Source of the DNA: Actinomycetota bacterium
GTDB lineage: Bacteria > Actinomycetota > Acidimicrobiia > Acidimicrobiales > Ilumatobacteraceae
Assembly: GCA_947454105.1 (NCBI GenBank)
Contig: CANGIP010000005.1
Span: 41,635-105,634 of the forward strand
Direction of reading: 5' to 3'
DNA length: 64,000 nt
The notes under the pieces are model-generated. The model saw only the letters and a list, made by a program, of their open reading frames with translations, ran no database searches and was not told where the DNA came from. The translations under genes were made by a program, and so were the position numbers. Position 1 is the stretch's first letter, and the number at the start of each line of letters is the position of its first letter. This document shows, in pieces, positions 31,857 to 56,421 of the stretch.

Positions 31857-31866
31857 GGTGACCTCT

Positions 31867-32676: not shown

Positions 32677-32755
32677 GACCTTGGAGATCCTAGTTGGTCA
32701 ATTGGTGGTGAGGGTGTTGCCTCAGTGAGCCCTCCATCGGCAAGAATGGTCACGC
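32677..32755. promoter_or_regulatory. divergent promoter region between wzm and wzt
   Basis: 79-bp spacer between the divergently oriented permease and ATPase genes. Confidence 0.35.
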
Positions 32756-33970: not shown

Positions 33971-33971
33971 G

Positions 33972-36532: not shown

Positions 36533-36548
36533 CGAAAGCGAATACGAC

Positions 36549-37271: not shown

Positions 37272-37314
37272 CTGAGGAAATCTGCCAATTCGCCAGACCA
37301 GATCGGTCTGATAT

Positions 37315-39309
37315 TTACGGGGTGAGGGATTCGAGGAATGGATTGAGCCTTTGTCCGATGACTCCGGCGGCGTAATCCGAAGGATGGTCGGTGTAGCTAT
37401 ACATGAAATGATTCCAACGCTCGTGGCGACAGATGCGATCTTCGGATCCGCAGAAAATCTCAGTGGCGTCAAAAATCTCGACCTGCCCCGGGAACTCTTG
37501 TTTCAACTGATCAAACATTTCGCGGTACTTGGTTGTTTGGTTGATGAACGTCTGGATCGGCAACTCACATAACGGGTTGGGTCTGACCAAAAGGCGATTT
37601 AAGAAACCAATAGCGGTGGTGCGTTGCAGACAATCTTCAGGGTTCGGCAACGGAGGGTTATCGATATACAGAACGACTTTTTTACCAGCTTGAGTCAAGA
37701 TCGTGATGCTGTTGCGAAAACCTTCTGTCACGATGTCGTAATAGGGACTGTCAGGTAATTGCGCAAAACTTGTTTCGTCACTGATACCAAACATCGCGCG
37801 AACTGCACCCTCAAGCACGACAACATCAACATCAGGATTCTGAGCAACTGAATCAACGGCGATTCGCGCAAGCTTTTGAAACCGTTCAAATTCGGGAGCA
37901 TCAGAGATAAGCGGGACTGGTACTCCGCTGTCGGAGTTGCCTCCCATAAACAGCCAGCGTCCGTTTTCAGTTGACGTACGAATCAAGCCACCAATCAAGG
38001 CCTCGGCCTTGCTATCACCGATGAGCGCGAAGCGTGGCGTCTCACGATTGTCTTCGAGACAACTAGCGAAAAGATTGGCAACTTTAGCGTCGCCGATTCC
38101 ACACGTATCTTGAACCCAGCCGTTTGCGCCGCCTTCTTCGCCGGAATTGATATCGGGGTTCATTTGAGCGACCTCACGACTGGAGATGCCATCGTTTTCA
38201 AACGTCACATAGCCGACAAGGCCAATGACGACCATTGATGCAACGAGCGCTCCAGTCACCACCTTGACGCGAGGATGAAAACGCAGTGGCTTTTCAATCA
38301 GCCGATAGGTGACCCAGGACAGCAGTACAGATACCACGACTGCTCCAAAACGAACCCCCGCCGATGGAACGGTGCTGGCGATGATTCGAGCGAATGTGAG
38401 TAACGGCCAGTGCCACAAATAGAGCGGGAAACTAATCAGCCCAATCCACACCATTGGTCGTAGTGAGAAAATGCGGCGAGCGGTAAATGTGCGAGAACCA
38501 GCGCCAATCATGAAAGCGGCGCCAACTGTTGGTGCAAGTGCATTCCAACCTGGGAATTTACTTTGCGCATCGAGCCCAAACATCGTGAATAGCACAAGAG
38601 CGAGGCCAAGAAAGGCGAGCAAGTGTTGCGGTTTCGAGGCTCTGTCGGCTGGTGTTTGACGCAACATGACGACCGCCAAAATCGCACCAACAAGTAGTTC
38701 CCAAAAGCGATTGAACGGCGAGTAATACGCTCCGACCACATCGTGGTTGAGTGCATACAAACCAAACCCAAATGAAACGATGGCGAGAACAACTGTTGAA
38801 GCAAGTACATGCAGTCTGATCTTGAAGACAACCCACAACAGCAATGGCCAAACAATGTAAAACTGCTCTTCAATTCCGAGTGACCATAAATGGGTGAGTG
38901 GTTTAACTGCCGATGAGGTATCGAAGTAACCCGATTCTTTCCACAAAATGATGTTGGAGATAAACGAAGCACCCGAGCCAACATGCTTGCCAAGTTGTCG
39001 GTATTCGGAGGCCAGCAAAACAAACCAACCCAATGCATAAACGAATGCAAGCATTGTGACTAGCGCAGGAAAGATTCGTCGGATTCGGCGTCGATAGAAG
39101 CCTTGAATGGTGAAGGTTGATTCGTTCAACCCATTCAAGATATTTGTGGTGATGAGATAGCCAGAAATCACAAAAAAAACGTCCACGCCGGCATAGCCGC
39201 CAGGAACCAACCATGAAAAGGCGTGAAAGATCACGACGGATACAACTGCGAGTGCCCGCAGACCATCGATATCTGATCGATAGTTGTGGGTCAGATGGGC
39301 TTGATGCAT
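37315..39309 (-). CDS. AT3 acyltransferase fused to a C-terminal SGNH-like domain (OafA/YrhL-type O-acetyltransferase)
   Basis: 664 aa. 'IDGLRALAVVSVVIFHAF' and 'LWSLGIEEQFYIVWPLL', then a ~280-aa soluble tail with 'ALIGDSKAEAL'. Confidence 0.8.
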   Translation of the reverse strand: MHQAHLTHNYRSDIDGLRALAVVSVVIFHAFSWLVPGGYAGVDVFFVISGYLITTNILNGLNESTFTIQGFYRRRIRRIFPALVTMLAFVYALGWFVLLASEYRQLGKHVGSGASFISNIILWKESGYFDTSSAVKPLTHLWSLGIEEQFYIVWPLLLWVVFKIRLHVLASTVVLAIVSFGFGLYALNHDVVGAYYSPFNRFWELLVGAILAVVMLRQTPADRASKPQHLLAFLGLALVLFTMFGLDAQSKFPGWNALAPTVGAAFMIGAGSRTFTARRIFSLRPMVWIGLISFPLYLWHWPLLTFARIIASTVPSAGVRFGAVVVSVLLSWVTYRLIEKPLRFHPRVKVVTGALVASMVVIGLVGYVTFENDGISSREVAQMNPDINSGEEGGANGWVQDTCGIGDAKVANLFASCLEDNRETPRFALIGDSKAEALIGGLIRTSTENGRWLFMGGNSDSGVPVPLISDAPEFERFQKLARIAVDSVAQNPDVDVVVLEGAVRAMFGISDETSFAQLPDSPYYDIVTEGFRNSITILTQAGKKVVLYIDNPPLPNPEDCLQRTTAIGFLNRLLVRPNPLCELPIQTFINQTTKYREMFDQLKQEFPGQVEIFDATEIFCGSEDRICRHERWNHFMYSYTDHPSDYAAGVIGQRLNPFLESLTP

Positions 39310-40187
39310 TCCCAGGTGGCGTAGTGATACGCGGGCAAGAAACCAAAGACTCTCGCGATGTATTTGTCAGCAACAGGTGATAGGTCAGTAGGTCGACCCA
39401 TGGCAACGAGGTCTTCAACGTTGAAGCCGTCACCATTTGATGTCGGGCATTCGGCTACATGATTGAGCATGTCGGCGAAATCTTGCGTCACCAATACCGT
39501 GGTTGTGAATCCCGCAGTCCGCAACTTGTCGGTGAGATCCCAGCCAAAGTTGAAAAACACTGGAGTGTTGTCGGCATGGAACTCTGGGGTCGATGGAACA
39601 TGGGTAACCCCGTAACACAGGGGCACCTGTAGGTACATGCGTCCGCCTGGAGCAAGCACTCGGTAAATCTCGCTGAGTGCCTTTTCGGTGTCGGGCACAT
39701 GTTCAAGCACGTGTGGCGTGAGCAAAATGTCGATTGACGAATCGGGCAAGGCCATTGCTTGCAGATCGATCTGAATGTCACCTTCATGAGCTGATAGGTC
39801 ATAGTCACTCGCGGTGTATTTGAAATAGCGGCGCATCATTGAGCGATAACCAGCGCCCATACGCGGACTGGTTTCGAGAACCCGCAGGTTTTTGGCGTAG
39901 CCGCGACGCGACAAGAAACAGAACAACAAGAAGCGATCGCGAGCCACGCTGCCACATCGCGGACAGGTCGCCATTTCGGTGTGATACGGCCCAACGAATT
40001 CATCGCCTGACCAATGACAGATGTTGCACACCGCGACGGCCGTATTGATCGTTTTGGGGTTGACCCATGGTTTGAAGCCGAGTTCCCACCAGGCGCCCTC
40101 AGGTGAGGCTAAACCGACTCGTCGCGCAATGGGCCGCAAAACCTGGCGGACTCGCTGAGACGTTGATTGCGGTGGGCCAGAGGACAT
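39291..40187 (-). CDS. class I SAM-dependent methyltransferase with N-terminal zinc ribbon
   Basis: 298 aa. 'CNICHW...CPRCGSVARDR' then 'LLTPHVLEHVPD' and 'LAPGGRMYLQVP'. Same architecture as 10844..11596. Confidence 0.7.
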   Translation of the reverse strand: MSSGPPQSTSQRVRQVLRPIARRVGLASPEGAWWELGFKPWVNPKTINTAVAVCNICHWSGDEFVGPYHTEMATCPRCGSVARDRFLLFCFLSRRGYAKNLRVLETSPRMGAGYRSMMRRYFKYTASDYDLSAHEGDIQIDLQAMALPDSSIDILLTPHVLEHVPDTEKALSEIYRVLAPGGRMYLQVPLCYGVTHVPSTPEFHADNTPVFFNFGWDLTDKLRTAGFTTTVLVTQDFADMLNHVAECPTSNGDGFNVEDLVAMGRPTDLSPVADKYIARVFGFLPAYHYATWECIKPI

Positions 40188-40267
40188 TGCACTTCACGCT
40201 AATAGGTGGCGGGACTCGGCGGGGGTAACTCCTGATCTCGCAGGTGTCACACGGTTAGGATTGTCCT
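40188..40267. promoter_or_regulatory. divergent promoter region
   Basis: 80-bp spacer between divergent operons. Confidence 0.35.
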
Positions 40268-40558
40268 GTGCGAATTCTTCGAGCCTTAGTTGGGCGTCTG
40301 ACCGGCCGAGATATGCGGGCCTTGCGAGCCGAAGTCGCCGAAATGCGGAACCAGATTCAGGTGATGAGCGATATTTTGCAGTCCCTCAACCATGACATCC
40401 GTTCTGGTTCTGAGCGATCGCTCCCATTATTCATGGGATATGCCGAACGTCTTCGTCTTGATGCCGACACCGCAGTCGGTGCCACACAAGTGATTGAGCG
40501 GCAGATTGCCCAATTGCAACAACGTCTCGACCAGTTGTCTGTGCCGAACCAGGGCTGA
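40268..40558 (+). CDS. small predicted coiled-coil protein
   Basis: 96 aa, GTG start, helix-rich ('LRAEVAEMRNQIQVM', 'IERQIAQLQQRLDQL'). It ends 3 nt before the next GT gene. No family recognised. Confidence 0.35.
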   Translation: MRILRALVGRLTGRDMRALRAEVAEMRNQIQVMSDILQSLNHDIRSGSERSLPLFMGYAERLRLDADTAVGATQVIERQIAQLQQRLDQLSVPNQG

Positions 40559-40561
40559 TCA

Positions 40562-42871
40562 ATGACGGCCCAGCCGCAGGTTCTCGTTGACGGGCGAGTG
40601 ATTTCGCATCCAACTGCCGGTGGGCGAGGAGTCGGGCGTTACACCATTGGTCTTGTGCGAGCACTGCACGAATCTGGTGCAGTAGTGACGGTGATGAACT
40701 CGTCGATTCACGATGAGCAGTTGTGGCTTGATGCAATACCAGCGTTGACAGTCGCTCCCTTCGAACCGAGTACGGTGCGCTTGATTTCGGCTGACACCTG
40801 GTTTATGTGCACGCAAATGATGTTGCACCCGATACCACTTGATGTGGTGCCACGCATGGTGACTGAGGCTGGCTTGCGAGTTGTTGGTGTTCTGCACGAT
40901 GTCATTCCGTATCGGTATCCAGACCAGTATTTAAGTGATCCGAGCGCTCTGAGGCAGTCGCAACTGCGGGCCATGCTCGTGCGCACATTTGATGCAATGG
41001 TTGCAAACTCAACCTTCTCAGCCGACACCGGTGCTTCGGTCTTGAAGTTTGATCGGTCGCGAATTCATGTTGTGGGCGCTGCGGTTGAGCCTCAGTTTTG
41101 TGTGGGATCAGTTTCGGCAGCGCGATTACAACGTCTGATTGACAAAGGTGTTGATGCCTCGCGAGGATTGGTTGTTGCTGTCACGGGTGGTGATGATCGT
41201 AAAAATACATCTGGTCTCATTCGAGCTTGGGGTTCAATTGCCGGTGAACTTCGCAAGTCGCATCAGTTGGTCGTTGCATGTGCGGCAGTGCCAGTCGTTC
41301 GGGCTCGTTGGCGCGATGTTGCCAAATCGGTTGGGCTAACCACACAAGATGTTGTCTTTACCGACACCGTGACCGACGATGAAATGGTTGCCCTGTATCA
41401 GTCGGCTCGGTTGTCAGTGATGCCTTCGCTTGAAGAAGGTTTTGGTTTGCCGGTTGCCGAAGCTGCGGCTTGTGGTTGCGTCACCATCTGTTCGAATAAT
41501 TCATCACTTCCCGAAGTGATTGATTGTGAAGAAGCACTCTTCAATGCCAGTGATGTCATTGATATCGCGCGGGCTATCGAATGGGCGCTCACCGATGACG
41601 AACATCGCGAGCGACTGAGACTTGCCGCAGGGCGAGCTGCGCAACGTTGGACGTGGGCAAACGTTGGGCGAGCGGCTGTCGTGGGATTGAATCGTGGATC
41701 GGGTCGTGCGAATCTATTCCCAGTGAAGCAGCGAATTGGATTGATGGGTCCATATGCCGGTTCGCCGTCGGGTATTGGCACGTATAACGCGCGCTTGGCG
41801 AAGGCGTGGCACGAGAATCGTGATCTGCCCGAAATCATTGAATACGTTGATGTTTCTAGCACTTCAATTGCCGTGAATGATTGTCATTCTGCAGCCGGAA
41901 TGGGCCGGTACTGGTACCCACACGATGTTGATCATCTGATTGTCTCGCTTGGATCATCGCCGTATCACGCGATGTCGGTAGCCCGTGCTTCTGAATACGC
42001 CTGCCATGTCTGGTTGCATGAACCAACTCTTGTTGGCTGTCATGTTGGCATTGGACATCTATCTGGTTCGCGCGAATGGGCCGATGAATACATGCGAGAT
42101 CGATTGCGCGACTGCAATGTGTCTGAGCAGTTGTGGCCTCAAGATTTGCTTGATGCAGAGGCCTACCACGTGGCCGGAATTCATTTCTTAGAACCCGTGT
42201 TACGACACGCTCGATCAGTCATCGTGTCTAGCGACGAAGCCGCCCAAAAGATCCGCACTATTCGAGCGGACGTGCCGATTTTGGTGCTGCCGTTAGCGCA
42301 CGCGATATGTGAACCAGTCGTTCAATGGCCGAGCGATCAACTCGTGGTTTCAGTCGGATGGGTTGATGCCAGTAAGCGTCCAGAAGAAGTGGTGCAGTCA
42401 CTAGCCCGAATGAAGGCACGTTTGCTTTTCGTAGGCGAAGCATCTGACGAGATTCAAAAGCAGGTCAGGGACATGGCCGACAAAATGGGGATGGCTAGTC
42501 GAGTGAGCTTCACTGGGCGTCTCGCTGACGACGACTACGACCGCACATTGCGATCAGCATCATTGGCGATTCAGCTTCGTTTACATGGTGGGCGGGGCGA
42601 GCGATCAGCCGCTGTCAACGACTTGCGTTCACGGGGAATTCCGGTGATTTGCGATATCGGTCGTGAAGAGTCATTGTCGGTGGACGAAATTGAGCAGCAA
42701 GCGCGCGAGTTGCTCGACGCGGAAACCGTTTGGAATAGAGCATCTGCAGAATCGGTGGCAATCGCTCGCTCGTGGACATTCGCTGATGTCAGTCAAGCCC
42801 TTGTCTCGTGGGTTGATCGGTCACATGAGTTTGAAGCGGCAACAATTCATCAGGCATCTTCATTAGGGTGA
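40562..42871 (+). CDS. large two-module GT4-like glycosyltransferase
   Basis: 769 aa. The first GT-B module has 'MPSLEEGFGLPVAEAAACG'. The second half has a degenerate GT-B C-domain ('LLFVGEASDE...GGRGERSAAVNDLRSRGIPVI'). Confidence 0.7.
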   Translation: MTAQPQVLVDGRVISHPTAGGRGVGRYTIGLVRALHESGAVVTVMNSSIHDEQLWLDAIPALTVAPFEPSTVRLISADTWFMCTQMMLHPIPLDVVPRMVTEAGLRVVGVLHDVIPYRYPDQYLSDPSALRQSQLRAMLVRTFDAMVANSTFSADTGASVLKFDRSRIHVVGAAVEPQFCVGSVSAARLQRLIDKGVDASRGLVVAVTGGDDRKNTSGLIRAWGSIAGELRKSHQLVVACAAVPVVRARWRDVAKSVGLTTQDVVFTDTVTDDEMVALYQSARLSVMPSLEEGFGLPVAEAAACGCVTICSNNSSLPEVIDCEEALFNASDVIDIARAIEWALTDDEHRERLRLAAGRAAQRWTWANVGRAAVVGLNRGSGRANLFPVKQRIGLMGPYAGSPSGIGTYNARLAKAWHENRDLPEIIEYVDVSSTSIAVNDCHSAAGMGRYWYPHDVDHLIVSLGSSPYHAMSVARASEYACHVWLHEPTLVGCHVGIGHLSGSREWADEYMRDRLRDCNVSEQLWPQDLLDAEAYHVAGIHFLEPVLRHARSVIVSSDEAAQKIRTIRADVPILVLPLAHAICEPVVQWPSDQLVVSVGWVDASKRPEEVVQSLARMKARLLFVGEASDEIQKQVRDMADKMGMASRVSFTGRLADDDYDRTLRSASLAIQLRLHGGRGERSAAVNDLRSRGIPVICDIGREESLSVDEIEQQARELLDAETVWNRASAESVAIARSWTFADVSQALVSWVDRSHEFEAATIHQASSLG

Positions 42872-44286
42872 ATGTCGCTATGAGTTTTGAAGTTCCCTTT
42901 GTCCGCATCGTGATTTTGTCGTTTGATGGTGGGCAGATGACTCTTGACTGCATTGAGTCGTTGGTGAAAACCGAGTGGCCGCGTGACCGCTACGAAATCG
43001 TGATGGTCGACAATGGTTCGCTAGACGATGTAACTGAACGTGTTCGTGCGCAATACCAAGAAGTGCGCATTCTTGAGCCATTGCGCAACTTGGGTTTTGC
43101 TGGTGGATGCAATTTGGGTATGCAGGGAATTGCCTGTTCACAAGGCAAGCCACTTCGTGACTACGACCATGTGGCGTTGGTGAATAACGATGCCACTGTT
43201 GAAGCAGGTTGGTTGAGAGCACTCGTTGAGGCGATTGAAATGGGAAGCGACGTTGGTGCGGCGAGCGCCAAGATGTTGTTCGCTGATCGATTTACCGGGA
43301 TTGATCTCGAGGTTTCTGAAACATCGATTGCTGGCGGCGGAGACGACAGGCTCGTTGGAGTCTGTGTGTCGGGTATTCGCATTGATGGTCAACGTTCTGA
43401 TGATCGTTTGCAATTTGACGAAGGCTTTCATGGGCCGGTTGGCTTTGACCCCAGTCGGGGTGAAGAGTTTGCTCGCTGGAGCAAAAACCGGGGAGCTCTG
43501 CGCATTGGCGAAACACGAACTGATGAATCTGTTCAACAAGTGGTGTCGTTTCGGTTGTCGGCTGAAACCGAGCGGACTGTCACCCTGCGGTCAGATATCG
43601 ATGAAGTGACCGTGACTGTTGGCGGTGGCTATGCCGACAAGAAGCCAATCTTCACGTGGGTGGATGTGCGGGTCGGTAGCGATGTCTTTGACGTGATCAA
43701 CAATGTCGGTTCAAATCTCTATGAACGTGGATTTGGTGGCGACCGTGGATTTCTTGAACGTGACCGTGGTCAGTTTGAGCAAGCCGTTGAAGTCTTCGCA
43801 TGGTGTGGCGGCGCAGTGTTGTTGAAGAAGGCGTACCTCGATGCGGTTGGCTTTTTTGACGAGCGTTTGTTCTTGTATTACGAAGACACCGACTTGTCAT
43901 GGCGGGGCCGTTTGCAAGGTTGGCGTTATATGTATGCGCCTGGAGCGTTGGTGCGTCACCGCCATGCACAATCATCGGGAGTCGGCAGCGACACCTTCCG
44001 TTTCTATACCGAACGAAACCGCTTATTGGTTCTGGCGAAGAACGCGCCTATCTGGTTGGCCGTACGTTCGGGACTGGGAGAAGTGAGGCGCACTGTCATG
44101 ATCAATGTGCGGCACTTAATTTTGCGTCCATTGACTTTGCGTATGCCAGCGCGTCCTGAAGCAGCGATGAGGCGCCGAGTATTGAAGTCGTATCTTGCGT
44201 TGGTGCCCGCAATGTTGCGAGATCGTTGGTTGATGGACCGCAGTTTTTCACGTCAATCGTTGATGAAGTGGGAAGTGTCAAAGTGA
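42868..44286 (+). CDS. GT2 glycosyltransferase with ~135-aa internal insertion
   Basis: 472 aa. 'VRIVILSFDG', 'IVMVDNGSLDD', 'NLGFAGGCNLG', 'LVNNDATV', then an insert, then 'WCGGAVLL', 'YYEDTDLSWR'. GTGA overlap with the upstream gene. Confidence 0.75.
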   Translation: MNVAMSFEVPFVRIVILSFDGGQMTLDCIESLVKTEWPRDRYEIVMVDNGSLDDVTERVRAQYQEVRILEPLRNLGFAGGCNLGMQGIACSQGKPLRDYDHVALVNNDATVEAGWLRALVEAIEMGSDVGAASAKMLFADRFTGIDLEVSETSIAGGGDDRLVGVCVSGIRIDGQRSDDRLQFDEGFHGPVGFDPSRGEEFARWSKNRGALRIGETRTDESVQQVVSFRLSAETERTVTLRSDIDEVTVTVGGGYADKKPIFTWVDVRVGSDVFDVINNVGSNLYERGFGGDRGFLERDRGQFEQAVEVFAWCGGAVLLKKAYLDAVGFFDERLFLYYEDTDLSWRGRLQGWRYMYAPGALVRHRHAQSSGVGSDTFRFYTERNRLLVLAKNAPIWLAVRSGLGEVRRTVMINVRHLILRPLTLRMPARPEAAMRRRVLKSYLALVPAMLRDRWLMDRSFSRQSLMKWEVSK

Positions 44287-45443
44287 CTCGTCCTAAGATT
44301 GCTATCTACAACTTGTACTGGGCTACCTATGGTGGTGGTGAACAAGTGAGTGGAGCAATTGCCGAAACATTGTCAAAGTATTGCGATGTCACCTTGCTCG
44401 GACCCGAAGAGCCAAATATTGAGGCCACACGAGCCCGGCTTGGGGTTGACCTCAGTGGATGTGCTTGGCGAAAAGTCGTTGACGATCTTGAGGCTGGCGT
44501 TGTGAGTGCTGACTTTGATGTATTTATAAACGGTACCTACCGCAGTCACTCGGTAAATCAGGCCCCAGTTGGTTTGTATTACGTGCATTTTCCCGAGCCA
44601 CCGACAACATCACGTCGTAAAGCGGTTGATGCGGTGGCGCGTACTGGTTTAGGTGCAATGAAGTTGGCGCCACGTGTTCCAAGTCGTCTTGAAGGTGTAC
44701 GTCGTGGACTGCAACGCCGCGTTATTGATCAATCATGGGCAAAGTCGTACACCAAGTTTTTGTCAAACTCGCAATACACCGCAGGCTGGGTGAAGAAACT
44801 GTGGGATGCCGACAGTGAGATTGTGTATCCGCCCGTTCGCACAACTGTGAAGCCAGGCACGAAGGTTGAACTGATCACGTCAATTGGACGATTCTTTGAC
44901 CCGTCACTTGGCCATTCAAAAAAACAGCTTGAGTTACTTGAAGCATTCACGCGCATGTTTTCGTCGCGTGAAGGTATCGGGTCGTGGAAGCTCTCATTTG
45001 TCGGTGGGGCTGATGCAGCAAGTCGCGACTACGCATTGGCGATACGACGTGGTGCAATCGGACTACCTGTTGCCGTTCACTTGAATGCACCTCGCGAGAT
45101 CGTCGAGACCACTCTGGCGACCGCAAGCATCTATTGGCACGGCGGCGGATTTGGCGAAGACGCCGAACTACATCCCGAGCGTTTTGAACATTTCGGCATT
45201 GCTGTTGTTGAAGCAATGGCGGCAGGGGCAGTGCCAGTGGTGTTTGCTGCAGCGGGTCCGGCCGAAATTGTGCGACACGGAGTTGATGGTTTTCATTGGA
45301 AGACGCTTGATGAGTTGCAATTACTTACTCGTCAACTAATGAGTGATGAAGAGTTGCGACTAAAGATGTCTACTGCCGCACAATTGCGGGCTGCCGAATT
45401 CGGGGTAGAAGTTTTCGCGAACAGAATCAGATCTTTGATCTGA
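44283..45443 (+). CDS. GT4 glycosyltransferase
   Basis: 'FEHFGIAVVEAMAAGAVPVV'. GTG 44283 overlaps the upstream stop (GTGA) and has GGGAAG upstream. The ORF-track ATG 44226 would overlap by 61 nt. Confidence 0.75.
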   Translation: MTRPKIAIYNLYWATYGGGEQVSGAIAETLSKYCDVTLLGPEEPNIEATRARLGVDLSGCAWRKVVDDLEAGVVSADFDVFINGTYRSHSVNQAPVGLYYVHFPEPPTTSRRKAVDAVARTGLGAMKLAPRVPSRLEGVRRGLQRRVIDQSWAKSYTKFLSNSQYTAGWVKKLWDADSEIVYPPVRTTVKPGTKVELITSIGRFFDPSLGHSKKQLELLEAFTRMFSSREGIGSWKLSFVGGADAASRDYALAIRRGAIGLPVAVHLNAPREIVETTLATASIYWHGGGFGEDAELHPERFEHFGIAVVEAMAAGAVPVVFAAAGPAEIVRHGVDGFHWKTLDELQLLTRQLMSDEELRLKMSTAAQLRAAEFGVEVFANRIRSLI

Positions 45444-45453
45444 TTTTCAGATC
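45437..45453. terminator. short hairpin spanning two convergent stop codons
   Basis: gatctga-ttt-tcagatc, a 7-bp AT-rich stem. Weak evidence. Confidence 0.25.
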
Positions 45454-47560
45454 AGGTGACGTACCCCATCACGTCAATGAGCACATGGGTGCTTGTCGTT
45501 CCACTAAAACCAGCATCATTGTAGACCTGTAGGGTCCCATCGGTTCCGAGTTGAACGATTGTCATATTGGGAACCGTCAATCCTTTAGTGAAATTGACAT
45601 TTGAAGAATGAGGCATCGGTGATCCGGTCGGCCACACGGCGAGCCAACCCCATGCGCTCGAATCCACTGAAGTGACGTTGAGATAAACGGCTGTGGCGTT
45701 ACTTGGGATCCCGTCAATCCCAGCTACTTGAACCGTACGAGTTTCATTGGCTTGCATTCTTTCTTGAGAAGTTCCGACGCCATTTCGGGTGTCAAATATT
45801 CGAGTTGGTTCAACTGCAGTAGTTTTTCCTTCGCCGTTGCTGCCATGTACGTAGTAGCCAAAAACATCAACGATGAGGTGGGTGCCCGCTTCACCAGTGA
45901 AAAGCCTGACCTTCCCGTTGTCTCCAATTTTGACTACTGCCAAGTTGGAACGATCAACAAGATAAATGAGATTGAGATTTGATGCCGTTGGTCGGGCAGT
46001 GTTGTCTGGGTAGGCGGTGACATATCCAGATCCAGTAGGGGAAACAGATGTGATGTTGAGGACAACAGAGTCAGCATTCGCGGGAATCCCATTTATTCCT
46101 GCCACAGTAAATGTTCGATCATCAAATGGAGAAAATTTTCCACCGGCAACCACTGAGTCATCTCCGATTTGATTTCGTGTATCGACAATCCGAATGGGGG
46201 AGATGCCAACAAATGCATTCCCATGGTTTGGTGCGGTCGCTGCACTCGTATCAAACCATCCCGCAAGATCAGCAACTAGATGACTGTGATCGTTGTAATT
46301 GTAGATACGAATTTTTCCACCCGCGCCGACTCGAGCGAGAACCAGATTTGGGACGGTGACATTGACTTCAGTATTGAGATTGGAAGCACTCGGCCAAGCT
46401 CCGTAGGTGAATTGATCATTGAAGACATCGCCGTTCCCAGCAGGGCGGGGTCCAATTGAGATGAAGCCTTGAGAAGATGGAGAGACTGCAGTGATATTTA
46501 AAAGGACAGCGCTCACGCCACTATTTGGGACTCCTCCGATACCGGTGACTTTTAAGTCATGATTGGCGGCCTGGGCGGCACGGATGTAGGGATTGGTTGA
46601 TGTTTCACTGCCCTCTCCAAAAAGAATTTGTCCATTGGTGATTCCCGTGCCATTGCGCGTATCAAGAATTCGGGTTGGAGTTGTTGAATGGAATCCACCA
46701 GTTGCGGTCGGTGAACTTCCTGAATCAAAAGTGCACACTGGAATACCAAAGCACACTGCATCAAGGTCAATTGCTGGAATATTGTCTGATGAGATATCAA
46801 CGATTCCATGTAGGGCTCGGCCTGTAGCAGTGTCACGGATGTATATGACGTAGTGCCCGTCGTAAGCGATTCCACCCGTCCAAGCATTACCTCGACTCTT
46901 CGAAGATGTGAAGGCCCCGATATCAACTCCATGATTATTGCTTGGTGGATGAACACATGTTTCGTGATAGTTGCAATCAATTTGAAAGATGTCAACTTCG
47001 ACTCGATTGTCTGGCACAACATCGTGCGACAAAATGTCACCTTGCAATCGAAAAGCACCGTTGATCCCAAGTTGCGGTAAATCAATGTTGCCCACGTTGA
47101 GCCAGTTGGCACCCATTGATGAATCAACTTGCACCTGAACGCCGCCAAAGTTCCCCTGCCACGGGTCGTATGTTTGCCAATAGCAAGGGTCATTTTCATT
47201 GATCCCGCTGCATCCGGTAGGAGGGTGGGGATAAATCTCAAGTCGCATCATTGTTGGGGAACCTTGAACTGTCATTCCGTCAGAGAGTGACGTACGCCAG
47301 CCAAAAGTTGGTGAGCTAGGTGCTTGATCGAAGTTCCACAGACGACCACTTGCACTCCATCTCACCATGGCGTCATATGCAGCGGTACCTTCGTTGTTGT
47401 TGTAGATCGCGTCAAGTCCAATTGTGCCGACTGTGCCCTGTGTGATGAGATTGAAGTGAATGGTCGTTGAAGCTGCCGCATTGGCCGTTTGGCCGAAAGC
47501 GAAAAGGCTGGAGACTAAAAAACTGAGCACTATGACGAAGCGTGTTTTCATAACCTTCAT
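45452..47560 (-). CDS. secreted protein: unknown Cys-paired N-domain plus three ~130-aa repeat modules
   Basis: 702 aa. Signal peptide 'MKVMKTRFVIVLSFLVSSLFAFGQTANA'. Modules start at 'TPTRILDTRNG', 'SPIRIVDTRN' and 'EPTRIFDTRNG'. Confidence 0.7.
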   Translation of the reverse strand: MKVMKTRFVIVLSFLVSSLFAFGQTANAAASTTIHFNLITQGTVGTIGLDAIYNNNEGTAAYDAMVRWSASGRLWNFDQAPSSPTFGWRTSLSDGMTVQGSPTMMRLEIYPHPPTGCSGINENDPCYWQTYDPWQGNFGGVQVQVDSSMGANWLNVGNIDLPQLGINGAFRLQGDILSHDVVPDNRVEVDIFQIDCNYHETCVHPPSNNHGVDIGAFTSSKSRGNAWTGGIAYDGHYVIYIRDTATGRALHGIVDISSDNIPAIDLDAVCFGIPVCTFDSGSSPTATGGFHSTTPTRILDTRNGTGITNGQILFGEGSETSTNPYIRAAQAANHDLKVTGIGGVPNSGVSAVLLNITAVSPSSQGFISIGPRPAGNGDVFNDQFTYGAWPSASNLNTEVNVTVPNLVLARVGAGGKIRIYNYNDHSHLVADLAGWFDTSAATAPNHGNAFVGISPIRIVDTRNQIGDDSVVAGGKFSPFDDRTFTVAGINGIPANADSVVLNITSVSPTGSGYVTAYPDNTARPTASNLNLIYLVDRSNLAVVKIGDNGKVRLFTGEAGTHLIVDVFGYYVHGSNGEGKTTAVEPTRIFDTRNGVGTSQERMQANETRTVQVAGIDGIPSNATAVYLNVTSVDSSAWGWLAVWPTGSPMPHSSNVNFTKGLTVPNMTIVQLGTDGTLQVYNDAGFSGTTSTHVLIDVMGYVT

Positions 47561-47605: not shown

Positions 47606-48262
47606 TTAGGGTTTCTGCGCAATGATCAACATTTGTCCTGCCATTGGTCGCCAGGGGAGCCGCAAATACAGTGGAACAAGTTTGTGGCCAGAACTGAGTC
47701 GACTCTTAAAGGTCATCGGCAAGAATCGAGCCTCGGTTCGAACGTGTATGAAACCATTTTTGACGACGCATTCGGTGAGCGACTTGTCATCAAAAATCGT
47801 GACATGGGTTGGGTCGTCGAAGTAAGTCTTGGCCGAAAGTCGATAATTGGGTTGAATCAAAATCAACAGTCCGCCAGGTTGAAGGACACGCATGACCTCG
47901 GCCAGACAACGGGTGATTGAGTCGTCGTCTAAGTGTTCAAGGAAGTTGCTCGCAGTCACCGTGGCGAATTCGTTGTCGACGAAGCGTGAGAGATCAGTGG
48001 CATCGCCCACATATGCTTCGACATTGTTCGGCACAAGAGTCGCTAGGTCGGGATGGATATCGATAGCGACTCGACGAGAGGCATTGACAGCACTGGTGAG
48101 GTCGCCGTAGCCAGCAGCGAGATCGAGAAGCGCACCTTGTGGATTTATCCACTTTGATAGGTACTTCGAGACATGACGCCACACTTCAGCCCGTGCGGCA
48201 TTTGGCGCCATGCGTGTCGCAAAATATTCGTGACTATCGGGTTGATTGTCTGGTGAAGTCAC
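47606..48262 (-). CDS. class I SAM-dependent methyltransferase
   Basis: 218 aa. 'LLDLAAGYGDLT' (motif I), 'VTASNFLEHLDD', 'LQPGGLLILIQP'. Confidence 0.7.
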   Translation of the reverse strand: MTSPDNQPDSHEYFATRMAPNAARAEVWRHVSKYLSKWINPQGALLDLAAGYGDLTSAVNASRRVAIDIHPDLATLVPNNVEAYVGDATDLSRFVDNEFATVTASNFLEHLDDDSITRCLAEVMRVLQPGGLLILIQPNYRLSAKTYFDDPTHVTIFDDKSLTECVVKNGFIHVRTEARFLPMTFKSRLSSGHKLVPLYLRLPWRPMAGQMLIIAQKP

Positions 48263-51640: not shown

Positions 51641-51699
51641 GTGTCGAGTGACAGGATTTGGTCGGGCTTTCTCGGTACGGTTTGAGGGCTCGTGACACC

Positions 51700-54600
51700 A
51701 TGAAAAATCTTTGCAAGACTCTCCTTGCCGCCATGAGCGGAATGCTTGTGGCCTCGACAGTGTCGTGGCTTGCCCCGGTGACGCCCGCGCAGGCAGCTCC
51801 TGGTGACCCCAACGTTGGACTAGCCATTGTCATTGAAGGTCAGGGCAACGGTCACGGACGGGGTTTGAGCCAGTACGGAGCGGTGGGTTGGGCCACGGTC
51901 TATGGCAAAGACTGGACCTGGATTCTTGATCACTATTACGGCGACACCTCGATGGGGGCGGTTGCTGCTGGAACTCGGATGAGCGTTCGTCTGACCGCTC
52001 AAGACGATCTACAGACTGCGGTGATTGCATCTGGTGGGAACGCGTTTTGGGTCGGCGGGACACCGGGTTATTTCACGTCAATGGTCGCTCGCGAAGTCGG
52101 TTCATCGGGCGGGCAGTACACCTATCAAGTGTGGGGCAAAGCTGGTATTGCCGAGTGTCCTTCTTCTAATGACTCATTAGCAAGTTGGATCAGCCTCGGG
52201 AATGTGACGACTGCAGCGGGGTTGCCCTCGGTGACCTTCTCGGTGCCAGGTGCAGATGATCCAGCGACTCCAGCAGCTTCGTTGTTGGGTGTGTGCGATT
52301 CGGCGGGTGCAGTGCGCCATTATCGAGGAAACATTTATGCGTCGAACGGAACATCAGGAGAAAATCGCACTGTCAACGATGTTGATATTGAGTCTTATGT
52401 GCGTGGAGTTGTGCCACGTGAGTCGCCAGCTGCATGGGCCGATCGCGGTAACGGCACAGGAATTAATGCGTTGAAGGCACAAGCGGTTGCCGCGCGTTCG
52501 TATGCATTGGCGCAAGGCGGCGGCTTAGAGAATCGCCGCTATGCATATGCAAAAACATGCGATACGACCAATTGTCAGGTGTACGGCGGTGCCGGAACTC
52601 GCACTTCGGCGACTGCAAATATTGTCGCCATTGAAGATTGGCGAAGCGATCGCGCTGTTGCCGAAACTTCGTTAATGATTCGAGTTCGTGCCACAACACC
52701 GTTGGTGCCGGTCTCAACCGAGTTCTCATCTTCAAACGGCGATCGCACGGCGGGCGTTAACTTTCCAGCTGTCGATGATGCCGGTGACAAAATTGATTAC
52801 AACCCGTACAGTCGTTGGACACGAGTCTTAAGTCTTGAATCATTTGCGGCACGATTTGGCTTGGCAACAATTACCAAAATTGAAACGTCCATTGACCCGT
52901 CGGTTTCAACTGGAACATATGGAGTGACTCCAGCTTGGGCAGTGCGATTCAGATTTTATAACGGAACTCAATCGGTGTATGTGAAGGCATCAGAGATCAA
53001 GTCGGCTTACGATCTTCCGTCGCCGTCAATTTCGGCGCGGATCATCAAGCGCGATCTATCAAGCAATGATGACTTCGTATTCATCGCTGACTCAGTCGGA
53101 GCGAGTATCGCCGATAACGCTGGTGCAGGCGAGTTGCCAACACTTTTGCGGCGAGTATTCAATTCAGATACTTACAGCACCCAAGAGTATCGCTGCACGG
53201 TTGGCAATTGTCCTCCAGCAACTCAAGATGGATTGGCTGTGGCGAATTCACTGACTGGTACTCCCGATTTGGCAATCGTCGAACTTGGATATAACGACAA
53301 TCAGTCAACTCTTGGCGGCGAAATTGACCAGGTGATGACAGCGCTCGTTGCGAAAGGTGTGCGATATGTCGGTTGGGTGAGTATGTCTGAACGTCGAAAA
53401 GTAAGTGGTGTTTCATCTTTTGCTGCTGGCAATCGCGCCTTAGTTGCAGCAACGGCTCGTTGGCCACAACTTCGAATTCTTGATTGGGATGGATACACCA
53501 TGTGTGGTCCTCGAGATCGCTGGTTCTCGGACAGTGTCCATCTCAACACGACTGGCCAAGCCGAATTTGCATTGTGGCTACGCGATCGAGCGATTGAACT
53601 GGGAACGGGTTCCGTATCGTCGCCAAAATGTTTTGTGCAAGTTGAACCAGGTGTTGATTTGCAAGTTCCGGTGCTTGGAGTTTCGGGTATTCCACTCACT
53701 GGTGTGACAGCAGTAAGCATGAACTTGACTGCGGTTGGGCCAACAGCTGAGGGGTATGTCACGGTCTGGCCATGTGGAAGTGCCAAACCAGATACCTCGA
53801 ATGTGAACTTTGTGAAAGATCAAATTGTTCCAAATGCAGTGATTGCACCCGTTGATGCAACGGGCAAGGTGTGTATTGCATCGTCGGTAGGCACACACGT
53901 CGTTGTCGACATCAATGGTTGGTTCGGTTCAACATCTGGATTGAGGGCTGTCACTCCGATTCGTGTTTTTGATACGCGAAGTGGAATCGGAGGTGTGCCG
54001 ATTGCAAAAGTTGGTGCACTTGACGGAAGTGGAACTGCGCTTGAGGTATCGGTGCTGTCGGCGATTGGCCAAGTTGCCGGAGCAGTTTCTGCGGTATCGC
54101 TGAATGTGACGGCAACGGGGACGAGCGCTTCAAATTATGGCGGGTACGTGACTGCGTATCCATGTGGATCGCGACCCAATGCATCGAACCTCAACTTTGT
54201 TTCGAATCAAACAGTTCCAAATGCTGTGATCGTGCCGGTCTCGGCAACTGGCACAATTTGTTTCTACGTGTACGGGCAAGCCGATTTGATTGCCGACGTA
54301 AACGGTTGGTTCGCTGGTGGTTCAGGATTCAATTCATTAACTCCAACTCGCGTCTTTGATACACGTTCAGGCAGCGGTGGGGTGCCCATTGCCAAGGTGG
54401 GAGCCCTTGATGGATCTGGCAGTGCGCTAAAGGTGCAAGTTACGGGAACAAATGGTGTTCCTCCATTGGGCGCAGCTGCGGTGATGATGAACGTGACTGT
54501 TGATGCAACGACGGCTTCTGCGTATGGCGGATACGTGACCGCGTATCCGTGTGACGCGACTCCGCCGAACTCGTCGAACATCAACTTTGTGAGCGGACAG

Positions 54601-54789
54601 ACAATTGCCAACTCGGTCGTCGCGCCGCTGTCGGTGAATGGTGAAGTGTGTTTCTACGTATACGGCCAAGCCCATGTTTTGGCTGATATCACTGGTTGGT
54701 TGGCATCTGGCTCGACGGTTTATACCGCGATGACGCCGGTCCGATTCTCGGACACGCGCTCGGGTCTCGGGCCGATCCCTGGCCGTTAA
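51700..54789 (+). CDS. secreted SpoIID/LytB-domain protein fused to an SGNH-like domain and three repeat modules
   Basis: Signal peptide 'MKNLCKTLLAAMSGMLVAS..AQA'. SpoIID blocks 'GHGRGLSQYGA', 'ALKAQAVAARSYAL', 'CDTTNCQVYGG'. SGNH blocks 'FIADSVG', 'ELGYNDN', 'DSVHLN'. Modules run from ~53635. Confidence 0.8.
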   Translation: MKNLCKTLLAAMSGMLVASTVSWLAPVTPAQAAPGDPNVGLAIVIEGQGNGHGRGLSQYGAVGWATVYGKDWTWILDHYYGDTSMGAVAAGTRMSVRLTAQDDLQTAVIASGGNAFWVGGTPGYFTSMVAREVGSSGGQYTYQVWGKAGIAECPSSNDSLASWISLGNVTTAAGLPSVTFSVPGADDPATPAASLLGVCDSAGAVRHYRGNIYASNGTSGENRTVNDVDIESYVRGVVPRESPAAWADRGNGTGINALKAQAVAARSYALAQGGGLENRRYAYAKTCDTTNCQVYGGAGTRTSATANIVAIEDWRSDRAVAETSLMIRVRATTPLVPVSTEFSSSNGDRTAGVNFPAVDDAGDKIDYNPYSRWTRVLSLESFAARFGLATITKIETSIDPSVSTGTYGVTPAWAVRFRFYNGTQSVYVKASEIKSAYDLPSPSISARIIKRDLSSNDDFVFIADSVGASIADNAGAGELPTLLRRVFNSDTYSTQEYRCTVGNCPPATQDGLAVANSLTGTPDLAIVELGYNDNQSTLGGEIDQVMTALVAKGVRYVGWVSMSERRKVSGVSSFAAGNRALVAATARWPQLRILDWDGYTMCGPRDRWFSDSVHLNTTGQAEFALWLRDRAIELGTGSVSSPKCFVQVEPGVDLQVPVLGVSGIPLTGVTAVSMNLTAVGPTAEGYVTVWPCGSAKPDTSNVNFVKDQIVPNAVIAPVDATGKVCIASSVGTHVVVDINGWFGSTSGLRAVTPIRVFDTRSGIGGVPIAKVGALDGSGTALEVSVLSAIGQVAGAVSAVSLNVTATGTSASNYGGYVTAYPCGSRPNASNLNFVSNQTVPNAVIVPVSATGTICFYVYGQADLIADVNGWFAGGSGFNSLTPTRVFDTRSGSGGVPIAKVGALDGSGSALKVQVTGTNGVPPLGAAAVMMNVTVDATTASAYGGYVTAYPCDATPPNSSNINFVSGQTIANSVVAPLSVNGEVCFYVYGQAHVLADITGWLASGSTVYTAMTPVRFSDTRSGLGPIPGR

Positions 54790-55669: not shown

Positions 55670-56326
55670 TTATTCGGGAATAATGGCTCCGGTGATGTTT
55701 GCGCCGGTGAGAATCGCGCCGGTCATGTTTGCTCCGGTGAGATCGGCGTAGTACAGGTTGGCATTGGTGAAGTCGACATTGGTGAGGTCGGCGCCGGTCA
55801 ACACTGCATCAGAGAAGTTGGCGCCAGTCATGTTTGCACCGACGAGTGATGCACCATCAAGTTGAGCCTTGCGAAAGCTTGCGCCTTGTCCTTGAGCATC
55901 AGCCAAGTTGGCTTTTGCGAAATTCACTAACGAAAAATTGGCGTTCGTTAAAGTTGCACCGCTGAGGTCGGCACCGCTCAAGTCGGCTCCAGAAAAGCCC
56001 GTCTCAGTGAGATTGGCTTTCGAGAGATTTGCTGTGGTCATTGTTGCTGAGCCGAAAAATGACTTTGTTAAATCTGAACCTGACAGGTTTACCTCGGTCA
56101 TGTCTTTGCCCTTGAAATCCATGTCAATGAAACTGCTATTTGACAGATCTTGACCTACAAAGTCGGCGGGAAGTGAATCGGTAGAAGCATCGCTCGTCAT
56201 TGGAGCCGAGTCGGTTGACGGAGTTGATGCGGTTGACGAACCTTGGGAATCGTCACCACCGCAACTTGTCAAGACAATGAGAGTGAACAATGCGGTTGTG
56301 GCTAATTTTTTTGATGTGTTTTTCAT
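55670..56326 (-). CDS. pentapeptide-repeat lipoprotein
   Basis: Lipobox 'LTSCGG' follows a hydrophobic N-terminus, then an S/T/D-rich linker, then ~30 A(D/N)LxG-type pentapeptide repeats. ATG 56326 is preferred over 56353. Confidence 0.75.
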   Translation of the reverse strand: MKNTSKKLATTALFTLIVLTSCGGDDSQGSSTASTPSTDSAPMTSDASTDSLPADFVGQDLSNSSFIDMDFKGKDMTEVNLSGSDLTKSFFGSATMTTANLSKANLTETGFSGADLSGADLSGATLTNANFSLVNFAKANLADAQGQGASFRKAQLDGASLVGANMTGANFSDAVLTGADLTNVDFTNANLYYADLTGANMTGAILTGANITGAIIPE

Positions 56327-56421
56327 GGTTGTTTCACCGTAGTGAAGAACCAACTCACGAATACTCGTAAAGAGTGTGACACGAATTACTCAATAACAAC
56401 CGAAACTTGGTGTGCAGATTT

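What the first reader, a model, noticed from the sequence alone, without database searches (positions are those of the whole stretch)
45455..46681. Uncharacterised ~130-aa repeat module shared by two secreted proteins that flank aceE-rnhA
Seen: the 702-aa secreted protein (45452..47560, minus strand) ends with three tandem modules. The SpoIID-SGNH protein carries three more at 53635..54732, with periods of 387 and 393 nt, plus a 19-aa fragment. All six align by eye to (T/S)PxR(I/V)xDTRxG ... V.G..G(I/V)P ... AV.LN(I/V)T.V ... G(Y/F/W)(V/L)(T/S) ... P ... SN(L/V)N ... VPN ... G.(I/V) ... H(L/V)(I/V).D(I/V).G(W/Y). Copies differ heavily at synonymous sites, so they are old and under selection rather than recent duplications. 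The SpoIID copies carry a conserved Cys pair ('WPCG'/'YPC' ... 'VCI'/'ICF'/'VCF') that the other protein lacks. I cannot assign the module to a named domain. Inference: it is a beta-rich wall- or glycan-binding module that holds secreted enzymes on the envelope, possibly on the polymer made by the adjacent locus.
Basis: partly seen in the sequence, partly recalled or inferred. Interest (0 to 1): 0.7.

Follow-up and report, generated by a model that had tools for sequence, protein, structure and literature searches.

The report
Triple jelly-roll module on secreted proteins
Two secreted proteins in this window end in three copies of an unnamed ~120-residue beta-sandwich module; the module belongs to a very large, undescribed family that almost always comes in threes and probably folds into one compact three-lobed binding or anchoring unit.

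Summary
Protein A (45452..47560, minus strand) and the SpoIID/SGNH protein B (51658..54789, plus strand) each carry three divergent copies of one module. BLASTP between the two arrays gives E=3e-46. The module matches nothing in Pfam, NCBIfam or PDB sequences. An exhaustive profile search still finds 37,859 cluster representatives.

- The unit is a triplet. 129 of the top 150 proteins have exactly 3 copies; 8 have 6 and 1 has 9. In an independent genome sample, 54 of 71 ORFs have 3 and none has 4 or 5.
- AlphaFold2 gives a confident model of the array (pLDDT 91, pTM 0.87), all beta. Foldseek places it among jelly-roll folds, closest overall to single-chain TNF/C1q-like trimers.
- Protein B's "19-aa fragment" is a conserved displaced strand. 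Its first module lacks this strand, which implies a closed ring.

The triplet sits at the N- or C-terminus of secreted proteases, glycosidases, peptidoglycan hydrolases and beta-propellers. None of these has another obvious anchor. A role as an envelope or glycan anchor is plausible but not shown. Linkage to the adjacent glycan locus is not conserved at other loci.

The parts
47477..47560 (-). Protein A signal peptide (aa 1-28, MKVMKTRFVIVLSFLVSSLFAFGQTANA)
   Evidence: Read from the sequence: hydrophobic N-terminus followed by an A-x-A site.
46697..47476 (-). Protein A N-terminal orphan domain (aa 29-288). Not part of the repeat; function unknown.
   Evidence: No Pfam or NCBIfam hit. No PDB sequence hit. 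Only 2 homologs, at 76-77% identity.
46244..46696 (-). Module A1 (aa 289-439), with two insertions
   Evidence: hmmsearch domain E=9.6e-49; alignment.
45839..46213 (-). Module A2 (aa 450-574)
   Evidence: hmmsearch domain E=4.8e-51.
45455..45823 (-). Module A3 (aa 580-702). It ends at the protein's C-terminus.
   Evidence: hmmsearch domain E=3.6e-50.
52357..52674 (+). Protein B SpoIID/LytB domain (aa 234-339)
   Evidence: Pfam PF08486 E=1.4e-19. TIGR02669 E=1.2e-28. PDB SpoIID chains match by sequence.
53104..53562 (+). Protein B SGNH/GDSL-like region (aa 483-635). The match is below Pfam's cut-off.
   Evidence: PF13472 E=2.7e-4, 21.9 bits against a cut-off of 32.9. The same family is recorded for many orthologs.
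53650..53937 (+). Module B1 core (aa 665-760). It lacks the N-terminal PxRxxDTR strand.
   Evidence: hmmsearch E=1.9e-40, matching profile positions 27-124 only. The triple model has no strand in this position.
53941..54324 (+). Module B2 (aa 762-889), with the Cys pair
   Evidence: hmmsearch E=7e-47. Single-module AF2 model has pLDDT 91.
54325..54714 (+). Module B3 (aa 890-1019), with the Cys pair
   Evidence: hmmsearch E=1e-48.
54715..54786 (+). Displaced N-strand at B's C-terminus (aa 1020-1043, ...TPVRFSDTRSGLGPIPGR). Inferred to complete core B1 and close the ring.
   Evidence: It forms an 11-residue strand at pLDDT about 88 in the triple model. It is retained in all 103 full-length orthologs. 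Across the family, an extra terminal strand occurs only where the first module lacks its own (Fisher p=1e-7).

Best explanation
Each module is a ~120-residue jelly-roll beta-sandwich. Three consecutive modules pack into one closed, pseudo-threefold unit. The result is a single-chain counterpart of the homotrimers formed by TNF/C1q-like domains.

This triplet is a non-catalytic extracellular module. It is fused after the signal peptide or at the extreme C-terminus of many unrelated secreted domains. In this window the partners are an orphan domain (protein A) and a SpoIID lytic transglycosylase plus SGNH esterase (protein B).

Its most likely job is to bind a repetitive cell-envelope glycan, either peptidoglycan or a wall glycopolymer. 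Up to three equivalent sites would do the binding, and the cargo would stay on the cell's own surface. Functionally that makes it an analogue of the SLH triplet.

Shown here: the repeat, the triplet quantisation, the jelly-roll fold class, the extracellular setting, the disulfide variant and the permuted strand.
Inferred: the closed-ring geometry (no coordinates could be inspected) and the binding or anchoring role.
For: Triplet unit:
- 129 of the top 150 representatives have exactly 3 modules, 8 have 6 and 1 has 9. The six- and nine-module proteins resolve into triplets.
- In a sample of GTDB genome loci that was not ranked by total score, 54 of 71 ORFs have 3 modules and none has 4 or 5.

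Compact fold:
- The AF2 model of B aa 651-1043 has pLDDT 90.9 and pTM 0.87 and is all beta.
- The highest whole-array TM-scores are to single-chain APRIL/BAFF trimers (4zch, TMq 0.33-0.37), a phage 'C1q domain-containing' protein and a Hyperionvirus protein (TMq 0.34-0.38).
- For a single module, the best PDB neighbours are almost all trimer-forming jelly rolls. They include the Bd2133 fibre tip, the BC2L-C N-terminal lectin, OX40L, C1QL2, APRIL, C1q and a phage cement protein, followed by CBM4 and CBM22.

Ring closure:
- In an isolated module its own N-strand is confident, while an appended next-module strand stays disordered at pLDDT 54-62. In the triple model, B's terminal strand is ordered at about 88.
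- An extra terminal strand is seen in 8 arrays, all of which lack the first strand. It is seen in 0 of 139 arrays that have the first strand.
- All 103 full-length B orthologs keep the terminal strand.

Anchor or binding role:
- Partner domains include Peptidase S8/M6/M10/M23, trypsin, GH12/18/43/44, SpoIID, RCC1/PQQ/NHL/FG-GAP propellers, fn3, Big and cadherin-like domains.
- None of 152 proteins has an LPXTG signal, a TM helix or a hydrophobic tail. 107 of 135 that start with Met have a signal-like N-terminus.
- Cys69 and Cys102 covary, which indicates an extracellular disulfide.
- TNF-like trimers in bacteria are documented lectins or adhesin tips that bind sugars between protomers (PMC10769870; PMC12914763).
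- The hosts are mainly Actinomycetota (Acidimicrobiia, Micromonospora, Streptomyces, Amycolatopsis, Terrabacter), plus MAGs labelled Chloroflexota or Dormibacterota.
Against: - No binding data exist for any family member.
- Model coordinates could not be inspected, so the threefold packing and the docking of B's last strand onto core B1 are inferred from pTM, pLDDT, DSSP and sequence statistics.
- AF2 can over-pack repeats, because intra-module covariation can be read as inter-module contact.
- Structural similarity to TNF/C1q folds is weak: single module TM 0.34-0.50, and no PDB hit at E<=1e-3.
- The triplets have no consistent basic charge. Median pI is 6.7, and the window's triplets are at 5.6 and 4.8. 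Simple electrostatic binding to anionic wall polymers is therefore unlikely.
- tblastn finds no copy in 50,697 phage genomes. Phage endolysins often borrow host wall-binding domains, so this counts mildly against a wall-binding role.
- Other triplet genes show no conserved glycan-synthesis neighbourhood.
- The most conserved residues lie on strands that would form the inner sheet in a TNF-like fold. This strand assignment was reasoned by analogy with the TNF fold and was not computed. If it holds, the conservation may reflect packing rather than a ligand site.
Confidence: 0.5

Rival explanations
1. The triplet is a lectin or carbohydrate-binding module aimed at external ligands such as substrates, other cells or particles. 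It targets the enzymes to their substrate and does not retain them on the producer's wall.
For: The fold neighbours include CBM22, CBM4, a porphyran-binding CBM and TNF-like lectins. Some family members are glycoside hydrolases: GH12, GH18, GH43 and GH44. Bacterial TNF-like tips recognise foreign glycans.
Against: Most partners are not glycosidases; they are proteases, propellers, Ig-like domains and peptidoglycan hydrolases. The conserved positions are nearly invariant across proteins with very different cargo and across phyla. That fits one common ligand or a structural role better than diverse substrates.
Confidence: 0.2
2. The triplet binds no glycan. It is a rigid structural pedestal, an oligomerisation module or a lattice-forming (S-layer-like) module that presents the cargo domains.
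For: The highly conserved residues sit on strands that would form the trimer interface in TNF-like folds. This is inferred by analogy, from the column conservation and the DSSP strands. Modules within one protein are kept alike: 69% identity within proteins against 49% between proteins. That fits selection for symmetry. One homolog gave a weak S_layer_C hit.
Against: The S_layer_C hit occurs in only 1 of 56 proteins and never in the window proteins, so it looks like chance. A spacer would not need exactly three copies at a terminus. No other retention signal explains where these proteins end up.
Confidence: 0.15
3. The modules are independent tandem repeats, like Ig or fn3 strings. The compact pseudo-trimer is an AlphaFold artefact.
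For: Coordinates could not be inspected. AF2 may confuse intra-repeat and inter-repeat covariation. Whole-array TM-scores to known trimers are only 0.33-0.38.
Against: Copy number is quantised at 3, 6 and 9, with no 4 or 5 in the genome sample. The permuted arrays conserve the strand count. The appended strand is disordered in a lone module but ordered in the array. None of these results depends on the AF2 packing.
Confidence: 0.1

Closest known systems
TNF/C1q-like trimeric jelly-roll domains in bacteria and phages (BC2L-C N-terminal lectin, PLTL, Bdellovibrio MAT fibre tips Bd2439/Bd2734/Bd2133, phage C1q-like proteins)
   Same: Both are beta-sandwich jelly rolls of about 120-140 residues arranged in threes. 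These are the best fold neighbours of the single module and of the array. Both are extracellular. Known members bind glycans in pockets between protomers.
   Different: Here the three lobes are encoded in one chain and are fused to enzymes. There is no Pfam TNF or C1q match. Structural similarity is weak (TM 0.34-0.50, E>1e-3). The motif set is distinctive: PxRxxDTR, LNVT, SNLNF, VPN, DxxGW. Some arrays are circularly permuted.
SLH (S-layer homology) domain triplet
   Same: Both come as three tandem copies that act as one pseudo-trimeric unit. Both sit at the N- or C-terminus of many unrelated secreted proteins that have no other anchor. The range of partner domains is the same: proteases, glycosidases, Ig-like domains and propellers.
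   Different: SLH motifs are about 55-residue helical units (general knowledge). This module is about 120 residues and all beta. It gives no PF00395 hit. The ligand is unknown. The resemblance is functional analogy only.
Carbohydrate-binding modules with a beta-sandwich fold (CBM22/CBM4_9 tandem, CBM4)
   Same: Both are non-catalytic jelly-roll sandwiches appended to secreted enzymes. The 4xup CBM22 tandem is the second-best Foldseek hit for the array (E=1.3e-5).
   Different: No sequence-family match. TM-scores are low (0.17-0.38). CBMs do not come in an obligatory set of three. Most partner domains here are not glycosidases.
Viral triple and double jelly-roll proteins (STIV turret protein, 4ind)
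   Same: Both have several jelly rolls in one chain. 4ind is the top Foldseek E-value for the array (1e-5).
   Different: TMq is only 0.21. The viral proteins are capsid or turret components. tblastn finds no related sequence in 50,697 phage genomes.

Membership tests
Any Pfam-A / NCBIfam family | Profile HMM match at or above the curated cut-off | tested here: not met
   Protein A has no family hit, and B's triplet region has none either. Six single modules scanned at E<=10 gave only one chance DUF5992 hit at E=0.017.
Any family with a solved structure (by sequence) | Significant profile-to-PDB sequence match | tested here: not met
   The only hit was protocadherin-9 at E=0.063 over 49 residues.
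TNF/C1q-like superfamily | Jelly-roll beta-sandwich fold that superposes on TNF or C1q domains | tested here: inconclusive
   OX40L, C1QL2, APRIL, C1q, Cbln1 and BC2L-CN are among the top 50 hits, with Foldseek probabilities of 0.5-0.95. All have E>1e-3 and TM 0.32-0.44.
TNF/C1q-like superfamily | Three domains packed around a threefold axis | tested here: inconclusive
   pTM is 0.87 for the array. The best global TM is to the single-chain TNF-family trimer 4zch at 0.33-0.37. Triplet quantisation and the strand permutation also point this way.
TNF/C1q-like superfamily | Sequence signature (Pfam TNF PF00229 or C1q PF00386) | tested here: not met
   No match.
SLH domain | PF00395 match and helical ~55-aa motifs | tested here: not met
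   No Pfam hit. The models are all beta.
SLH domain | Binds a pyruvylated secondary cell-wall polymer | not testable with these tools
   This needs biochemistry. No csaB-like neighbour stood out among 150 flanking ORFs.
CBM (CBM4_9/CBM22-type) | Sequence-family match, or a close structural match with a carbohydrate cleft | tested here: not met
   No Pfam CBM hit. Single-module matches to 4xuo and 1ulo have E=0.04-0.06 and TM 0.31-0.38.
Archaeal S_layer_C (PF05124) | Profile match across family members | tested here: not met
   Only P0121 scores (E=1e-8, summed over six repeats, with no single stretch passing). The family is not among those matched by several of the 56 proteins scanned. The window modules do not match it.

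The most novel reading that the evidence does not exclude
The triplet is the main non-covalent cell-wall anchor of Actinomycetota and related monoderm phyla. On this reading it is a beta-sandwich, single-chain pseudo-trimeric counterpart of the SLH triplet. It would recognise a conserved wall glycan and so define the surface proteome of Acidimicrobiia and of many actinomycetes, including abundant freshwater lineages.
Probability: 0.3. Interest if true: 0.8.

Novelty: new variant of a known kind. Interest (0 to 1): 0.6.

Why it matters
The family has at least 37,859 clusters at 50% identity, yet it has no Pfam or NCBIfam model, no solved structure, and no description in the papers I could search. 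It is attached to hundreds of kinds of secreted enzymes and adhesin-like proteins in Actinomycetota, including cultivated Streptomyces, Micromonospora and Amycolatopsis.

Naming it would annotate a large block of 'hypothetical' surface proteins. If it proves to be a wall anchor, it would explain how these bacteria keep LPXTG-less, SLH-less exoproteins on the cell. It would also provide a new surface-display tag. The obligate triplet and the circularly permuted 'velcro' strand make it a clear case of a homotrimer-type fold fused into one chain.

Tried and rejected
- **Library searches.** Pfam and NCBIfam scans of both proteins and of single modules gave nothing. A module profile against PDB sequences gave nothing meaningful.
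- **Genome scan.** The search for related loci with the six-copy alignment failed because no stretch was conserved enough. I repeated it with seven consensus-like modules and it worked.
- **S_layer_C lead.** The hit is confined to one protein, so I dropped it.
- **Phage test.** tblastn of a consensus-like triplet against 50,697 phage records found no match. There is therefore no support from endolysins or tail fibres.
- **Neighbourhood test.** A Pfam scan of 150 ORFs flanking more than 60 other triplet genes showed no conserved partner or glycan locus.
- **Domain-swap test.** Searching with B's SpoIID-SGNH part returned only close orthologs that keep the same triplet, so it was uninformative.
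- **Charge analysis.** There is no consistent basic character.
- **Positional orthology.** Modules are more alike within a protein than across proteins at the same position. The triplet is therefore not a set of three anciently fixed, distinct positions.
- **Literature.** Six full-text searches found no description of this module.
- **Chance or recent duplication.** Rejected on the E-values and the saturated synonymous sites.
Full report
**1. The observation**

The two ORFs are present as described.

Protein A (45452..47560, minus strand, 702 aa) starts with a Sec-type signal peptide. It has no Pfam or NCBIfam match.

Protein B (51658..54789, plus strand) carries a SpoIID/LytB domain at aa 234-339 and a sub-threshold GDSL_2 match at aa 483-635. 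An identical protein, P0280, is recorded at 1029 aa. The true start is therefore probably Met15, at nt 51700, which exposes a signal peptide.

Motif search, MAFFT and an HMM built from the six copies place the modules as follows:
- A: aa 289-439, 450-574 and 580-702.
- B: aa 665-760, 762-889 and 890-1019, plus a 24-residue tail.

A six-frame hmmsearch finds the module nowhere else in the 64 kb window. BLASTP of array A against array B gives E=3e-46 in register and 5e-32 offset by one module. The copies share 33-61% identity, and at identical residues the same codon is used in only 21-45% of cases. They are therefore old copies.

The Cys pair noted in B is one state of a two-state character. 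Among 635 family modules, 156 have both Cys, 475 have neither and 4 have one. That is the signature of a disulfide and fits an extracellular location.

aceE and an RNase H gene lie between the two genes.

**2. Size and spread of the family**

The six-copy profile matches no Pfam family and no PDB sequence. An exhaustive HMMER scan of 1.84 billion cluster representatives still finds 37,859 proteins at E<=1e-3 and 12,986 at E<=1e-30.

The best 80 are mostly Acidimicrobiia MAGs. Cultivated Micromonospora, Streptomyces, Kitasatospora, Amycolatopsis, Terrabacter, Dactylosporangium and Catelliglobosispora also appear. So do MAGs labelled Chloroflexota or Dormibacterota, one Acidobacteria MAG and one Rudaea genome. 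One named example is an M6 metalloprotease of Pedococcus bigeumensis, WP_140736974.1.

The window itself matches contig CANFKH010000005.1 of MAG GCA_947447735.1. Relatives are labelled as uncultured Actinomycetota or Actinomycetes.

**3. The unit is a triplet**

Of the 150 best representatives, 129 have exactly three modules, 8 have six and 1 has nine. The six- and nine-module proteins resolve into triplets, separated by long linkers or marked by a different linker length. Ranking by total score would favour any higher copy number, so the near-absence of complete arrays with 4 or 5 modules is informative.

A second sample was not chosen by total score. It consists of ORFs around single-motif hits in GTDB genomes. 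There, 54 of 71 ORFs have three modules and none has four or five. Several of the ORFs with one or two modules are short or start at a locus edge and look truncated.

Among the 129 three-module proteins, the triplet is C-terminal in 86 (usually ending at the last residue) and directly follows the signal peptide in 38.

Modules within one protein are more alike than modules at the same position in different proteins: 69% against 49% identity. The number three is therefore maintained while the copies are homogenised or re-triplicated.

**4. Fold**

AlphaFold2 on B aa 651-1043, with 121 homologous rows, gives pLDDT 90.9 and pTM 0.87, and the model is entirely beta.

Foldseek against the PDB returns the following:
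- the STIV triple jelly-roll protein (4ind, E=1e-5);
- the CBM22 tandem (4xup);
- single-chain APRIL/BAFF trimers (4zch), which have the highest whole-array TM at 0.33-0.37;
- behind these, Vip3 and Cry domains, GH101 accessory domains and neuropilin.

Against viral models, the highest TM-scores go to a Hyperionvirus protein (0.38) and a phage 'C1q domain-containing' protein (0.34).

A single module (B aa 760-905) folds with pLDDT 91.1. It has no PDB neighbour at E<=1e-3. Its best matches have TM 0.34-0.50 and are almost all trimer-forming jelly rolls: the Bdellovibrio Bd2133 fibre tip, the BC2L-C N-terminal TNF-like lectin, OX40L, C1QL2, APRIL, C1q, Cbln1 and a phage cement protein. Viral coat proteins, CBM4 and CBM22 follow.

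The module is therefore a distinct jelly-roll family. Its nearest structural class is the TNF/C1q-like trimers. Membership of that superfamily is not established.

**5. The 'fragment' and ring closure**

B1 lacks the N-terminal PxRxxDTR strand, and B ends with one extra copy of that strand.

In the single-module model, the module's own N-strand is confident. The appended strand of the next module is disordered, at pLDDT 54-62. So the strand belongs to the core that follows it.

In the triple model, B's terminal strand is an 11-residue beta strand at pLDDT about 88. It must therefore dock on something that the lone module lacks.

Across 164 arrays, an extra terminal strand occurs in 8. All 8 lack the first strand. 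It occurs in none of the 139 arrays that have the first strand (Fisher p=1e-7). All 103 full-length orthologs of B end with this strand; these orthologs are at least 64% identical to B over the SpoIID-SGNH part used as the query.

The simplest reading is a circular permutation. That is possible only if the end of module 3 lies next to module 1, so the array must be a closed three-lobed ring.

I could not inspect coordinates, so this geometry is inferred. AF2 can also over-pack repeats. The copy-number and permutation statistics do not depend on AF2.

**6. Function**

Partner domains in 113 representatives are very diverse:
- peptidases: S8, M6, M10, M23 and trypsin;
- glycoside hydrolases: GH12, GH18, GH43 and GH44;
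- SpoIID;
- beta-propellers: RCC1, PQQ, NHL, FG-GAP and PD40;
- fn3, Big_9, cadherin-like, TIG and beta-helix domains.

None of 152 family proteins has an LPXTG signal, a hydrophobic C-terminal tail or an internal TM helix. 107 of the 135 that start with Met have a signal-like N-terminus.

This pattern is the one known for SLH triplets: one terminal non-catalytic unit shared by unrelated exoproteins that have no other anchor. Bacterial TNF-like trimers are documented lectins or adhesin tips that bind sugars between protomers (PMC10769870; PMC12914763).

My best explanation is therefore a single-chain pseudo-trimeric binding unit that holds its cargo on an envelope glycan. In this window it would place a peptidoglycan-remodelling enzyme (B) and an orphan domain (A) on the wall. 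Confidence is about 0.5.

Several results count against this or leave it open:
- No binding data exist.
- Charge is not consistently basic. Median pI is 6.7, and the window's triplets are at 5.6 and 4.8.
- No phage genome carries the module.
- The most conserved residues lie on strands that would form the inner, interface sheet in a TNF-like fold. This is an analogy based. If it holds, the conservation may be structural.

**7. The adjacent glycan locus**

Upstream of A lies an ABC-transporter-dependent glycan cluster. It contains:
- Wzm and Wzt, the latter with a Wzt_C domain;
- several GT2 and GT4 glycosyltransferases;
- an AT3-SGNH acyltransferase;
- methyltransferases.

A sits between a GT4 gene and a methyltransferase gene. 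However, 150 ORFs flanking more than 60 other triplet genes show no recurrent glycan genes. Only a handful are sugar-nucleotide, GT2 or ABC-2 genes. The proposed link to this particular polymer is not supported beyond local adjacency.

**8. Comparison and novelty**

The module is not a member of any Pfam or NCBIfam family, of SLH, or of a CBM family. Each of these was tested and not met. TNF/C1q-like membership is inconclusive: the fold class is plausible, but there is no sequence signature and the TM-scores are weak.

It works most like an SLH triplet in architecture and distribution. In shape it is most like a TNF-like trimeric lectin.

I rate it a new variant of a known kind. It is a large, unnamed jelly-roll family used as an obligate single-chain triplet, and some of its arrays are permuted. 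Interest is 0.6.

Noticed in passing
window 46697..47476 (-), protein A aa 29-288: The N-terminal ~260-residue domain of protein A is an orphan. It has no Pfam, NCBIfam or PDB sequence match, and the 5.8-billion-protein search found only two homologs, at 76-77% identity. What protein A does is therefore unknown.
   Followed up: partly
window 51658..51700 (+): An identical protein (P0280, 100% identity to the query region) is on record at 1029 aa, not the 1043 aa of the listed ORF. That points to Met15 (nt 51700) as the real start, which leaves a typical signal peptide ending ...PAQA.
   Followed up: partly
window 29649..45443 and 47606..48262: This is an ABC-transporter-dependent glycan synthesis cluster. 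It has Wzm (31867..32676), Wzt with a Wzt_C domain (32756..33970), several GT2 and GT4 genes including two large fusion proteins, an AT3-SGNH acyltransferase (37315..39309) and two methyltransferases. It also contains a 505-aa ORF with no Pfam hit (35015..36532).
   Followed up: partly
window 55670..56353 (-): A 227-aa pentapeptide-repeat protein (Pfam E=2.4e-55). Its N-terminus looks like a lipoprotein signal (…LTSCGG) and is followed by a Ser/Thr/Asp-rich linker.
   Followed up: no
family-wide (P0121-P0270): Modules within one triplet are much more alike (69% identity) than modules at the same position in different proteins (49%), and positional orthology is only weak. This suggests concerted evolution or repeated re-triplication while the copy number stays fixed at three.
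   Followed up: partly
L054 (Rudaea sp. 3F27F6, NZ_SCNG01000003.1) and L016 (Acidobacteria MAG): Triplet-bearing genes turn up in a genome labelled as a gammaproteobacterium and in an Acidobacteria MAG, outside the otherwise Actinomycetota-centred range. Horizontal transfer, mislabelling or mis-binning were not told apart.
   Followed up: no
loci L003-L070 flanks; P0121-P0176 set: DUF1800 is the most frequent Pfam family among ORFs next to triplet genes (4 of 150). Its usual partner DUF1501 is fused to a triplet in one representative.
   Followed up: no
protein B orthologs P0279-P0398: The SpoIID-SGNH-triplet protein is very common in metagenomes. 3,370 proteins score E<=1e-10, and the best 120 are at least 64% identical over the query, with most complete ones about 1030 aa long. 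The lineage carrying it appears abundant, and the architecture is strongly conserved.
   Followed up: partly
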